Assembly (NCBI RefSeq): GCF_964204645.1
Contig: NC_134028.1
Coordinates: forward strand, 2,666,001-2,730,000
DNA: 64,000 nucleotides
From: Tubulanus polymorphus
Lineage: Eukaryota; Animalia; Nemertea
Direction: 5' to 3'
Shown here: positions 40,001 through 46,000 of the stretch, in pieces
How positions within the stretch are numbered: the first letter of the stretch is position 1
Layout: each line of letters begins with the position of its first letter
Position numbers and translations under genes: made by a program
Notes under the pieces: generated by a model
What the model was told of the DNA's origin: nothing
Seen by the model: the letters and a program-made list of their open reading frames with translations, nothing else
Databases searched by the model: none

Positions 40001-43000
40001 AAAGATTATACGATTGATTTCCGTAACGAATAAAGGCCTCAATTATAAAAGAAATATCCATTTACATCTGACTTATCAAGTCTTCATGAAGACACATCTT
40101 GACTCTAAAACAATATTGTTTTAAAATTTGATTTACTGGAAGATCAGTCGCCTTAAGCCTAATGCGCACGACTCAGGAAAACACAGAAACAAACAGATCT
40201 CAGGAACTTTGTTTCCCACAATCATGTTTCTTGTTTTTTTTTTGTAAATGCACATGATGCAGGGAATGCTTAGAATCATATTTCTCTGTTTCTGTTTTCC
40301 TCTGTAGTGTACATTTATGATTTAAAGACTTGAAATAATGCGCATTCACTCACCGGGGATTGAACCCAATCGTGCTAACCAGTATAGACCAATAAGTTGT
40401 GGTCCACTTGGCCAGTAGTTAAACAGCTCGATGTTGCGTTTGCGTTACATAAACATTTCTTCTATAATTGAGGGTTTTAGTATGACATGAAGTTTGTTCC
40501 AGTTGAATGATCCTCGTGAGCAGTTTTTATTGTTCGATATATTTGTTTTGTTTGAATTTTTGTTGTTGTTTATTTTTATCTTTTTTTCAATAGATTTGGG
40601 ATACGGCTGGACAGGAACGATTTCGTAGTATTACGCGTGCATATTACAGAGATGCACACGGTATGTGCAGGATTTATATCATCTATTCCTAAAACAAGCA
40701 ACATCTAAACAACAACGTAATCGCTTGCTTATAACCCGCCACACCTGCAGAGTGGTTCAAAACAAAGTCATTAATTAATTCCGCCGATTTTCCGACAGGA
40801 AATAAATCGCGCGTGCTGTGTGTAATCTAATTTTCATTTCAAGGTAAAATTCTGGGAAGAAAAGAAAACCTGAAACTTGTTCAGCGTTTCACCTTTTTTT
40901 CCATGAATTTTTTTCTAAAATTCATTGTGATGTTAATGCTCTATCGCGATAATTGCTGAAATATTCCTACTCGCTGATTGCGGAATAAACTGCTGCTCTA
41001 TGGTCGTATTGTTATTATGACAGTCACCATGGAAAGCTCTCGATTCTGAATAAATCATGGAAATTGGTTTTATCTGAATTATCAATGAAAACTATTCTAT
41101 ATAGGCACATACAGGTATATATTATACAGTAGTAATCATCAGCAATAACACACCTGACTCACTGAGACTTGATTTGTTATTATGTTTGACATACAAGATG
41201 ATAGTAATAACTTCAGTTATCGGCGTAGTATGCACCATAGTTAGCGAGTCATTATATTTCTCTGTCTAATGCTAGAAGCGGTGGTGATGGGTAGGTGTGA
41301 TGGTGGTAGGGAAATAATATCGAGTAACTCTATACTCTTTGATTAATTGTACTGAGCATCGATGCCTTTAATATCTGTAAACTGTAGACACCGGATGAAA
41401 AGATCCGTTGAAACAAGATATTTTGTGGAAATTCTATAATTCCGATGGTTTATCAACTGACTGAGAAAACAACCCACACCATATCATTTTCAAAATATGG
41501 CCTTATCCAATTTCTTTTCTCCGATCCCTATAGCCCACCGCGGTTATTCCACTCTGACATTCACACGGATATTTTTGTCTCATATCTCGATTTCACTTTA
41601 ATCTGTTTGAAGCGATTAACACTCGACGACGTTTCCGAGAACTGTTAAATCTATCTTCGCAGATTTGGTCCTGTCTCTTGCTGCGTCTGTTATTTTTCTG
41701 TCATCGCCGCTCGTTTTCTAAGAAAGCGATTTAAACTTCAAAGTAACTTTCACAGAATTTGTTAGACTCCGAATCCAGATCTTTCTCGAGAAGGGATCTG
41801 CAAATGATTCTTCTAATGACTACCTGACTTTTTCGTTGAGTGTAAAAAAATCTCTGTTTCGTTGCGAAAGCTTTTAATGCGGCTTTTCATCGAATGAAAT
41901 TGTTTTAGCTGTCGCAGTCATTTCAGACTAACCAACTTTTTCCATGACCGACAGCTAGAACGTAGATTTGTTGCGTAAATACAAACTGTGACAACCACAT
42001 GGACGGTCAGATGTTTGTGACAGAGCTCACGCTATTGGCTCGGTACTCAACGGCATAAAAATCACCTCACGAAATCTCATAAAACATGTTATTTTAGATT
42101 GGAATTGAGGATGTATTTGCCAGCTGAATTTCAATTCGTTACAGTACGCACGGCGAAAATACACAAAACCTACGCTGAAATATCCGGAAGAAATGAGGAA
42201 AAACTCAAGAAATCTGACAAATTTTACCAAATACTTCGAAAACTCGGGGAATTCGGATTGGCCACGCGTTTCTTTACATGACTCAATGAAAAATGTGGAT
42301 TTTTGGGATTTACTCAGGGGAATTATGTCTTGTAACATCAGGGAATACTCATTGATTTTGTAAATAGGTGGATAGTGGCGCCACCCTGCAACAATACGAA
42401 GAGAAAAACGAGTTTGAAAGGTTTCGTTGAGCTAGTACTAGTTTATTTCAACGTTGCGCAGACAGCACGTTTCATCAAGATTACGCCCTTAATCTCTCGA
42501 GGAAATCTTATTCTCAAGGTTGTATTAGTTCTTTTCGAGGTTTCCACAAATGAAGAAATAATTTTTCGCGATGAATCGCGTTTCTTTACTCAGCGCCTTC
42601 TGTTCGCGATTTTGACGAGTTCAGTTCTTTACGAAAGCCGACCGATCGTCGAAACAATCGGTTTAAAATGCTCCGAGTGCGGCTTAAAGCGTGATAGCTG
42701 ATGATGTCAGGTATTTCAATTAAACCAGAATTCAGCGATAGACCGAGACAAACTGCTTGTATAACGACTATCGCACGTATGACTTGACATTAATTATTGA
42801 TATCGCGAGACTTTTACCTGTAATCCACGCCGGTTTCGTGATATCGGGTATTTGGTATATCAGAGACCTGTCTGCCCGGCGTTCATGTTCGTGTTTCAGT
42901 AATAATGAGCTACAGTAGCAAAGGGATGAAATTGATTCCTTTTCATGTTAATGGCAGAGAAACGTCGCAGACCTACGCGTAGACCTACACTACGACGACA

Positions 43001-46000
43001 GTGTCAATTTGTGTCCGTTTTATGTGTTCATTATTTTCCGCCCCACTACAAACATCCTCCCACGTACATCCGTGCTGAACTGAGGTCAGTCGCAGTACAT
43101 ACGACGAATGGTTAGTTCTGTGGAGTATCTTTCCATAAAAATGGAAAAAAGAAGTTAAAAAGCTTCCCTGGAGCCAAAATGCGATTCCATGTAGTTAATC
43201 AAGAACAAAATGGTCCTTAAAATGAAAAAAATGAGAAATAGAAATAATCTGGACCCACAGCACCATTCCATAATTTGAATATTCAAGGACAAAATGGGCT
43301 TAAATGGGCTGGGATCAAAAGCAAGGTGTCATCCCATCGCGTGTCAACTTTGGAACACTTACCCTTGTGGTTATTGTCGGTTTGTGAAGAGGGTATTTTC
43401 CGTGTGGGCACGTCATGACTCGACTGAATCTCCGTGTAATTAACCGGGAACGATGTCAGTAGCCATGGTTACTGATGTATGGACCACTTGAGTTTGTCTG
43501 TTACCTTCTCCGAGATTGATGAAGTTTTTTTTATAAGACGTTCCCGGCTAATCTTATTTCTTAGTCGTTATTCTATTATTTGATCGGTCGATGCCTGCGC
43601 AGCGTATTCCATTTGCGGTAATTATTTCGACGTTCTTAATTGTTTTCCATTTAGATGTTTTCGCGACTACACGACGACAAGAGAACGCCTGCGAATTGCT
43701 ACACTGTGTTTTAATGCGACGTGCTCAAATTAAAACTTTCAGGTGAAGAGAAACCGACAATTTGAAGGGAAAACTAGGAGTGTATTTGATGACGTTTCGA
43801 CTCAATACTATGACCAGACCTAACTACCATTACCGTGAGGTTGTAATCTACTCTCTCTGAGGTGTAACTACTCTTTTAAGGGGTCAATTACAACCATAAC
43901 CTATCTGTAAAATCTATCTATACTAAAATCTATCAAAATCAGGATGATTTCTAGATCATTTTCAATTAAACTACCATTTCCGATTTCAAATCGTGGTCAA
44001 AACTATTACGAAGTGAGACACCGAGGTAGTGGGGTCTTCAAGCTCATAGGATTGAATTGAAACGTCAAATACTCGCGTAGATTTTTCTTCATATTGTGGG
44101 TTATTTCTTCAGTTGAATTAGACAGTCATTTATCGGTTGAAACAAATAAAACTTGAATGTTTAAAATTGAACGTGTTGCGTATGATGTGTTTTTTCAGAT
44201 TTGGGATACGGCTGGACAAGAAAGATTTCGTAGCGTTACGCACGCGTATTACCGCGACGCTCATGGTACTTCAATCGATGTTTATATCTGTTGTCTGTTA
44301 AACTCCTTTATCGATATTTTAATTTCGCTTTTTATGCCCCATTTTTAACGTTTTAGTCGTCGTGTCTGCGTCGTATTCTAATCGGTGAAGATATGTATCC
44401 GATTTCTAGTTTATGAATGCATGAAGAGGCAATCGTTCCGTTTTGTTACATCTTGATCTAAACCGCTGAAGGGAATAAGTTTAGTCGCTGTAAACCAGAC
44501 TAGAAACTCGGCTCTTTGAGACGTAATCGAAATTCTGCAGACGGATCTTGCCATCGTGTGGTGATTGGCGACTAATTTGTATTCTTTGCCGTGGATCTGT
44601 TTAACCGATGTACGAAGTTACACGTTGAAAACATAATGAAATAGTAGTCTTCGATGAGTCAGGTAGAAGGAGAACGCGTCCCTAATTCAAGTCATGATTA
44701 AAACTTGTTTCTCGGGGGTTAATCACGAATGACTGAATCGAAGGTTTCTTAACCGCGCGAAGACAACTCGCCATCCAACAGTTGAATTTCGAATTCCTGT
44801 GGTTCCGTGAATCACAATAGATGCACTGCTTATCAACTTTATTTTGTATTCATCAACCCTGTATTTTTTGTATTCATTGATTCTCTCTGTGTTGTGCGTG
44901 TTGTTTTTATGTATGATCAATCATATATATATATATATATAAAACAGACTTCAGGAGGATTCCACATGAATTATTTATGCGTGTCAATGGCAACATTTTT
45001 TCCTCTCATCGGTTAATAATTTTATTCATTTGACTGCAGTAGGGCGTCTCTCTCTTTCTCTCTCTGCGATGTCCTTTTGGTTGAAATTCACCGTCATGAA
45101 CTTGCCAAATAGCCTCCACTTCGAAAAAGAGCTAATTGGTAATTTCTTAGTAGTCCGACGCGGCTTAGCTCAGCGGGATTAAACACTCCGGTACCATAGC
45201 TTCTCATTTATCTAGCTCCGCTATATAGCTTAGTCCCCGGACGATCAGTCAGTCAAACTGATAATAGCTCGTAATAGATTACGTGTCAAACATCATTTTT
45301 GGTCAGTGATATTTACTGACTGTTTGTATACATCCCTTTAGAGATTCGCAGTCGCTAAACGCATTCCCGGATTAGGAACTATTCAATACCTGCATGCCTT
45401 TATCATATATATATCGATGTTTAATCCAAGGTTATTGTTTATTATATGAGATTATTTTTTGTTTCATCCTTAATCGGATTTTACTAGTAATGAATTTCTA
45501 TGCACATTTTACTTACAGCCTTACTTCTACTTTACGATGTCACAAACAAGTCGAGTTTCGATAATATTCGAGTAAGTAAATATATTGAATACGTAACATT
45601 CCATGTACGTATGATAATTGACTATATTGGAGCTAATGATCGCGTATTGCGCTAACATTACCAGTTCCGGGACTTCTTTTGCTAGAGTTTTTGTCACTGC
45701 AAATATTTCCAAGTCTCAACAAGTGAAAGGACGTGGAGACTAATTTACTCGTTGATTAAACATCATTCTATACTAGATTGTCGTAGAAAACCTTTCCGAA
45801 ATTCGATTGCATTCTGTCATATATTAGCCTCTCGGCTACAGACATTCCTCATGATTTATAAATTGAGTTAATGTATTTGCTTAATTAATAAAACCGTCTG
45901 CTATTCCGACATTGTATTGATTTTATATCGATCTGTAGACTTTTATTCCAATTGACATCATTCAAAACTTGTAAATCGATACCAAATGAATATTTGCTAA

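What the first reader, a model, noticed from the sequence alone, without database searches (positions are those of the whole stretch)
40594..44265. Duplicated, obligatorily mutually exclusive switch II exons (SITRAYY vs SVTHAYY)
Seen: both exons are 67 nt, phase 0-1, with good splice sites. They differ at many synonymous positions (CAG/CAA, CGA/AGA, AGT/AGC, GCA/GCG, AGA/CGC, GAT/GAC, GCA/GCT, CAC/CAT) but only two amino acids (I/V, R/H), and the flanking introns show no obvious similarity. That pattern indicates an old duplication with purifying selection on both copies. Including both or neither shifts the frame. Established analogy: vertebrate RAB6A/RAB6A' use mutually exclusive exons over this same region and differ in effector binding. 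I do not know of this being described for Rab26/37.
Basis: partly seen in the sequence, partly recalled or inferred. Interest (0 to 1): 0.8.

Follow-up and report, generated by a model that had tools for sequence, protein, structure and literature searches.

The report
Ancient His/Arg switch exon in Rab37
A ribbon worm's single Rab26/37 gene, a vesicle-traffic switch, carries two copies of the exon for its partner-binding switch II, and clams, snails and chitons have the same histidine-versus-arginine pair, which likely lets one gene make versions that prefer different partners.

Summary
Confirmed. Two 67-nt exons (40594-40660, 44199-44265) of the only Rab26/37 gene found in this nemertean genome encode switch II. 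They differ at 12 of 67 bases but 2 of 22 residues (dN/dS 0.04). Using both or neither gives premature stops. A spliced contig from a public run joins exon 3, 4a and 5 and skips 4b; RefSeq models use either exon. Both forms occur in 18 of 49 named invertebrate species sampled (this nemertean, a chiton, 6 bivalves, 10 gastropods). Only His versus Arg is constant between the forms. The Arg form matches human RAB39B over 19 residues. The gene also has the known bilaterian RAB37 switch I exon pair, so both switch regions are alternative. No Arg form appeared in named vertebrate, arthropod or hemichordate records (weak sampling), and some mollusc groups show one form only. No docking/selector RNA pairing beat shuffles. 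Function is inferred, not tested. The RAB6A event is an independent analogue. Ten literature searches and three look-ups of this scan found no description. New member of a known kind.

The parts
40594..40660 (+). Exon 4a, switch II, Arg form ([11 protein letters not shown]); I111/R113 of the 237-aa protein
   Evidence: spliced joints 37434>40594 and 40660>45519 in run X2; RefSeq isoform X2 = P0122
44199..44265 (+). Exon 4b, switch II, His form ([11 protein letters not shown]), the form shared with vertebrate RAB26/RAB37
   Evidence: RefSeq isoforms X1 and X3 = P0001, P0121
21942..22055 (+). Candidate first coding exon 1a (ends ...IHK|GT), inferred partner of exon 2a; no transcript seen here
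   Evidence: the same ...HK end precedes 2a in mollusc proteins and human RAB37
28664..28774 (+). Exon 2a, P-loop and switch I, alternative copy ([13 protein letters not shown]...)
   Evidence: matches the human RAB37 alternative exon; no transcript seen here
31323..31463 (+). First coding exon 1b (RefSeq X1, X2)
33846..33893 (+). First coding exon 1c (RefSeq X3)
36131..36241 (+). Exon 2b, P-loop and switch I, main copy ([13 protein letters not shown]...)
   Evidence: spliced to exon 3 in run X2
37393..37434 (+). Exon 3, interswitch, single copy
45519..45571 (+). Exon 5, single copy
46985..47107 (+). Exon 6 (NKxD)
48444..48520 (+). Exon 7 (ETSAK)
49865..53827 (+). Exon 8: last coding bases (stop at 49964, ends CCS) and a 3' UTR of at least 3.86 kb
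   Evidence: (record 9)

Best explanation
Exons 4a and 4b are tandem copies of the switch II exon of the Rab26/37 gene, each spliced in singly; the duplication likely predates the nemertean-mollusc split, and the conserved His-to-Arg change likely tunes which regulators or effectors the GTPase binds. Shown: equal length and phase, selection on both copies, a 3-4a-5 spliced contig, both forms in 18 species, and the Arg exon lying first in both Tubulanus and a Mytilus gene model. Inferred: exon choice by competition between two regulated splice-site sets (4a has the stronger donor and pyrimidine tract), with nonsense-mediated decay removing both/neither products. Inferred: Arg113 places a permanent positive charge between RabF3 and RabF4, giving a RAB39B-like switch II. 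Promoter choice (1a-2a versus 1b/1c-2b) would independently set switch I, so one gene could make four switch I by switch II surfaces; all four are annotated in 6 mollusc species.
For: Exon anatomy and frames. dN/dS 0.041. Contig of run X2 with six GT..AG joints 2b-3-4a-5-6-7-8 that skips 4b and holds exactly one exon 4. In-silico 1b-2b-3-4a and -4b products are identical to RefSeq X2 and X1. Both forms in 18 of 49 named invertebrate species, 2a/2b by R/H in all four combinations in 6 of those 18. Two cephalopod-like transcript records with identical tails carry R and H (P0116, P0281). A Mytilus edulis gene model strings the R exon before the H exon (P0071). I/V and the last residue vary across species while R(K)/H does not. 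4a equals human RAB39B over 19 residues. Switch II is part of the surface used by nearly all Rab partners (PMC5902227, passages). One conservative switch II change (Rab3A Y84F) cuts effector affinity 20-fold, and Rab3C I95 (= I111) is in an effector patch (PMC9308819, passages). The residues next to R113 (Rab1b S76, Y77) are modification sites that alter partner binding (PMC5902221, passages).
Against: No binding or functional data exist for either form. Rab3C T97 (= R113) is not among the patch residues quoted, so the conserved toggle may lie at the rim of the interface. All 9 heterobranch gastropods sampled show only the R/K form and all 4 imparidentian bivalves only the H form, so the pair may be dispensable, if the genomes agree. 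Use of 4b in this species rests on RefSeq models whose RNA support I could not see. Runs X3 and X4 show an opposite-strand joint (43916-43919 to 44518-44521) that would fit an allele with 4b inverted. Mosaic forms (ITR..H, ITH..H, VTH..N) suggest conversion between the copies or repeated change. The two annelids each show one form only. Orthology of the exon pair was judged from proteins and one gene model, not from mollusc genomic DNA.
Confidence: 0.65

Rival explanations
1. The exons are real and alternatively used, but the proteins are functionally equivalent. Both copies persist because each is the one spliced in some cells, or because they tune mRNA level through decay of mis-spliced products.
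For: Only two conservative-to-moderate changes. Whole mollusc groups appear with a single form, R in some and H in others. Possible polymorphic inversion over 4b.
Against: Equivalent copies would not be expected to keep Arg in one and His in the other across a nemertean, a chiton, bivalves and gastropods while neighbouring sites drift. His is nearly fixed outside this group: 114 H and 2 Q in the 132 motifs outside the species table, and the 16 R are all unnamed records.
Confidence: 0.22
2. The nemertean and mollusc pairs arose by separate duplications and converged on Arg.
For: Repeated origin is reported for another tandem exon event (ACOX1; PMC8373072 section 17). Arg at this site is common in other Rabs (RAB39B; locus L001). 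Tubulanus ends both exons in His, most molluscs do not.
Against: Same exon, same order, same residue. The annelid Owenia and several annelid-like unnamed records also carry the R form.
Confidence: 0.08
3. Exon 4a was imported from another Rab (for example Rab39) rather than duplicated in place.
For: 19-residue identity to human RAB39B.
Against: 4a matches 4b at 55 of 67 bases, but the 9 other Rab loci read (of 10 fetched) at 41-48 of 67. It has the Rab26/37 end RDAH and the same borders as 4b. A Tubulanus Rab39 was not identified among those loci, so the test is incomplete.
Confidence: 0.03
4. One exon is dead or an assembly artefact.
For: 4b has the weakest donor in the gene.
Against: DNA contigs of run X1 cover both exons (table 8). 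4a is spliced. Synonymous sites are near saturation while both frames are intact. Both forms exist in 17 mollusc species.
Confidence: 0.02

Closest known systems
RAB6A / RAB6A' mutually exclusive exons (vertebrates; event 172 in PMC8373072 supplement)
   Same: Tandem homologous exons over switch II of a Rab, frame-shifting length, few amino-acid differences. RAB6A T87/A87 aligns with the last residue of exon 4, which differs N/H between the forms in molluscs.
   Different: Other Rab subfamily and other borders (106 nt, residues 62-96, copies 66 nt apart, versus 67 nt and 3538 nt apart). RAB6A differs at V62I, T87A, V88A, with switch II core unchanged; here the conserved change is inside the core. 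Vertebrate-only versus lophotrochozoan. Independent origin.
RAB37 tandem exon event (P-loop/switch I; event 171, dated to Bilateria, PMC8373072)
   Same: Same gene family; exons 2a/2b here are this event.
   Different: It concerns the 111-nt exon 2 and goes with alternative first exons. Both human RAB37 isoforms carry only SVTHAYY. The paper lists one RAB37 event and none for RAB26.
Human RAB39B switch II (PDB 6S5F)
   Same: Identical to the 4a peptide over 19 residues.
   Different: A separate single-form gene; the rest of this protein is Rab26-like (2G6B, E 4e-90). Likely convergence at one or two sites.
Docking-site/selector RNA pairing of arthropod mutually exclusive clusters such as Dscam (recalled, no paper read)
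   Same: Exons too far apart for steric exclusion, all GT-AG.
   Different: No pairing above shuffled background was found here; covariation could not be tested.

Membership tests
Rab26/Rab37 subfamily | Closest solved or named relative is Rab26/37 | tested here: met
   2G6B Rab26 E 4e-90, next Rab8A 3e-63; RefSeq name Rab-37-like
Rab26/Rab37 subfamily | Intact G1, G3, G4, G5 motifs and C-terminal cysteines | tested here: met
   [25 protein letters not shown]
Tandem-duplication-derived mutually exclusive exons | Homologous neighbouring exons of equal length and phase in one gene | tested here: met
   67 nt, phase 0-1, 55 of 67 bases alike
Tandem-duplication-derived mutually exclusive exons | Each exon is used singly in transcripts | tested here: met
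   4a: spliced contig that skips 4b. 4b: RefSeq models X1, X3 only. Both forms in cephalopod-like transcript records
Tandem-duplication-derived mutually exclusive exons | Double inclusion and double skipping are rare in mRNA | tested here: inconclusive
   Both give stops 285 and 190 nt before the last junction. No such joint among contigs, but contigs drop rare forms; raw read counts not available
Tandem-duplication-derived mutually exclusive exons | Both copies under purifying selection and conserved across species | tested here: met
   dN/dS 0.041; both forms in 18 of 49 species
RAB6A/RAB6A' event (as an orthologue) | Same gene family and exon borders | tested here: not met
   106-nt exon over RAB6A 62-96 versus 67-nt exon; a separate Rab6-type locus exists in this genome (L010)
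RAB6A/RAB6A' event (as a working model) | Isoforms differ in effector binding or pathway | not testable with these tools
   Needs biochemistry. For RAB6 a review says non-overlapping roles are suggested but not fully explored (PMC10392741, passages)
Docking-site/selector RNA mechanism | One intron element pairs strongly with elements flanking each exon | tested here: not met
   Best stems reached by 42 and 16 of 150 shuffles, co-location by 9 of 150; local folds z 0.16 and 1.05
Docking-site/selector RNA mechanism | Compensatory changes across related genomes | not testable with these tools
   No related animal genomes are held
Steric or U2/U12 exclusion | Very short intervening intron, or mixed U2/U12 sites | tested here: not met
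   Intron 3538 nt; donors match the U12 motif at 2-3 of 7 positions. A distant branch point was not searched for

The most novel reading that the evidence does not exclude
Lophotrochozoan Rab26/37 is a Rab whose two switch regions are both built from duplicated alternative exons, giving four effector surfaces from one gene. The Arg exon lets this secretory Rab borrow partners of the Rab39 group, while the His exon keeps a Rab26/37-specific, possibly pH-sensitive, contact.
Probability: 0.25. Interest if true: 0.75.

Novelty: new member of a known kind. Interest (0 to 1): 0.5.

Why it matters
Alternative exons kept across animal phyla are rare (PMC8373072, section 17). Here evolution has isolated one switch II residue, His versus Arg, and held it in two copies across a nemertean and several mollusc classes. 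That is a ready-made test of how a single residue sets Rab partner choice, with a direct prediction for human RAB26/RAB37 (H-to-R) and RAB39B (R-to-H). It also adds a second, independent case of switch II exon duplication beside RAB6A. The isoforms already sit in automatic annotations; what seems undescribed is their shared origin and the single conserved toggle.

Tried and rejected
Run search: no RNA holder listed; run X2 nevertheless held a spliced contig. No joint into or out of 4b, and no X2 cover over it, was listed; contigs show presence only, so this is not counted as evidence. Exons 1a and 2a lay outside the stretch laid. RNA pairing: arms 40562-40587/40691-40716 (-13.4 kcal/mol) and 39845-39874/40692-40721 (-21.4) are low-complexity; the best cross-intron stems were matched by 6, 3 and 7 of 40 shuffles and, on repeat, by 42 and 16 of 150. 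The -57.7 kcal/mol hairpin 43750-44104 partly overlaps dispersed repeats and was not taken as regulatory. The AlphaFold model (mean pLDDT 67.5) was below 50 over residues 103-112, so it says nothing on R113 exposure; no fold search was run. The tree of post-exon-4 tails was poorly resolved (7 of 37 branches starred); used only to place cephalopod-like and bivalve-like records. A-to-I editing was considered: the two changes run in opposite directions and both exons are in the DNA. In-frame rescue through cryptic AGs: one in each exon, the one in 4b without a pyrimidine tract. The original RAB6A/A' paper was not held. Earlier notes of this scan held nothing related.
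Full report
Observation. They differ at 12 bases: 8 synonymous codons and 2 replacements, I/V and R/H. dS is 1.46, dN 0.06, dN/dS 0.041 (Fisher p 9e-6). The flanks share no similarity beyond shuffles. No third copy exists in the window. The genome search shows both copies at this one locus and only other Rabs elsewhere.

The gene. Exon 6 matches at 100% a RefSeq protein named Rab-37-like from the nemertean Tubulanus polymorphus; the best solved relative is Rab26, 2G6B. 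The order is 1a, 2a, 1b, 1c, 2b, 3, 4a, 4b, 5, 6, 7, 8. Spliced in silico, 1b-2b-3-4b-5-8 is RefSeq X1, 1b-2b-3-4a-5-8 is X2 and 1c-2b-3-4b-5-8 is X3, letter for letter. Both exons together stop in 4b, 285 nt before the last junction; neither stops in exon 6, 190 nt before it. Decay by NMD is inferred from the usual 50-nt rule (recalled). Exons 2a and 2b are a second duplicated pair, over the P-loop and switch I; this is the RAB37 event dated to Bilateria in PMC8373072 (passages, section 17 and supplement rows). 1a-2a gives an open 228-aa frame that matches no stored protein.

Expression. Of four coded runs, X2 holds a 4595-nt contig with six GT..AG joints, 2b-3-4a-5-6-7-8. It skips 4b and continues about 3.9 kb past the stop. 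So 4a is spliced in, alone. For 4b in this species the basis is the RefSeq models, whose read support I could not see. All four runs are of one study and are contigs, so no isoform ratio can be given.

Conservation. Three protein searches (best 120 of 255, of 7860 and of 7299 hits) and three cluster look-ups gave 302 stored proteins. Among 49 named invertebrate species, 18 show both an R(K) and an H form: Tubulanus, the chiton Liolophura, 6 pteriomorph bivalves and 10 gastropods. 17 show R/K only and 14 H only. Two unnamed transcript records with identical tails, grouped with Sepia at 100/99 support, carry R and H. A Mytilus edulis gene model concatenates the R exon and then the H exon, the order seen here (P0071). 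Of the three variable positions, I/V is Ile in both forms in gastropods and the last residue is His in both forms in Tubulanus; only R(K) versus H is constant. All four 2a/2b by R/H combinations are annotated in 6 of the 18 species. The annelids Owenia (R) and Capitella (H) show one form each.

Limits of the range. No named vertebrate, hemichordate (1 species) or arthropod (3 beetles) record carried R/K. The other 132 motifs were 114 H, 2 Q and 16 R, the 16 all unnamed records. H-form beetle and vertebrate proteins reached the top 120 of the R-form profile search, so an R form with like flanks should have ranked above them. But only cluster representatives are listed, so absence is weakly shown. 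All 9 heterobranch gastropods show R/K only and all 4 imparidentian bivalves H only; these may be losses or gaps in annotation. An origin before the nemertean-mollusc split, over 500 million years ago (date recalled), is the simplest reading.

What the change may do. R113/H113 lies between RabF3 and RabF4. By alignment from the conserved Trp, I111 is Rab3C I95, part of a hydrophobic effector patch, while R113 is T97, which is not named in that patch (PMC9308819, passages). Its neighbours correspond to Rab1b S76 and Y77, and S110 to the switch II phosphorylation site (PMC5902221, passages). [quoted passage not shown] The 4a peptide is identical to human RAB39B over 19 residues, and another Tubulanus Rab has Arg at this site (L001). 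Import from another Rab is unlikely: 55 of 67 bases match 4b against 41-48 for nine other loci. DENN/MADD recruits human Rab26 and Rab37 (PMC12495445, passages) and is a candidate partner to test. A difference in partner binding is inferred, not shown; the structure model was unreliable over switch II.

How exclusion is enforced. Not by a short intron (3538 nt) and not by U12 sites. No RNA pairing beat shuffles. 4a has the stronger donor (6 versus 5 U1 matches) and tract (14 versus 11 pyrimidines). Both exons have longer AG-free zones (72, 75 nt) than exons 3 and 5 (51, 33) and fewer branch-like motifs. I favour regulated competition backed by NMD; this is inference.

Against my reading. Single-form lineages, mosaic forms, no functional data, and an opposite-strand joint in runs X3 and X4 (43916-43919 to 44518-44521, 3-base microhomology). 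The right-hand side of that joint is unique in the genome. It would fit an allele with a 600-bp inversion over 4b, but only one junction was listed and it is unconfirmed.

Comparison and novelty. RAB6A/A' is an analogue: a 106-nt exon, copies 66 nt apart, differences V62I, T87A and V88A; T87 aligns with the N/H site of molluscs. A review confirms three differences and suggested separate roles (PMC10392741, passages); the effector-binding claim itself is recalled. PMC9714508 (passages) lists human RAB37 isoforms with N- and C-terminal changes only. Ten full-text searches returned no description of a switch II exon pair in Rab26/37; most results were seen as listings only, subscription journals and bioRxiv supplements were not searched, and mollusc splicing tables could hold it. 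The scan's own notes had nothing related. Verdict: a real, old, apparently undescribed mutually exclusive exon pair; a new member of a known kind; interest 0.5.

Noticed in passing
window 21942-22055 and 28664-28774: Candidate 1a plus exon 2a give an open 228-aa isoform like human RAB37's second isoform; no stored Tubulanus protein matches it, so it may be unannotated.
   Followed up: partly
window 43916-44521: Opposite-strand joint in runs X3 and X4 (one sample), with 3-base microhomology; could be a polymorphic inversion of about 600 bp that contains exon 4b. Only one junction listed.
   Followed up: partly
window 43752-44146: Long imperfect hairpin (arms 43752-43813 and 44044-44102) and two dispersed repeats (43923-44037, 44042-44146; at least 40 other places) ending about 50 bases before the 4b acceptor.
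   Followed up: partly
window 44154-44163: Three one-base deletions in run X1 just upstream of the 4b acceptor, so this region differs between haplotypes.
   Followed up: no
window 38400-38640: Very high-copy repeat in intron 3 (bin depth about 15,000 in X1 against about 30 nearby).
   Followed up: no
window 49965-53827: 3' UTR of at least 3.86 kb; it holds a short element with inverted ends near 50274-50545, seen by eye.
   Followed up: no
window 34001-36000: Extreme skew (GC -0.61, AT -0.41), probably a pyrimidine-rich simple repeat between exons 1c and 2b; not read.
   Followed up: no
window 40594-40613 and 44199-44218: The first 20 bases of 4a and 4b are identical, third positions included, while later synonymous sites are near saturation; conversion or a shared splicing signal is possible.
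   Followed up: no
stored proteins: Apparent reciprocal loss: 9 of 9 heterobranch gastropods have only the R/K form, 4 of 4 imparidentian bivalves only the H form.
   Followed up: partly
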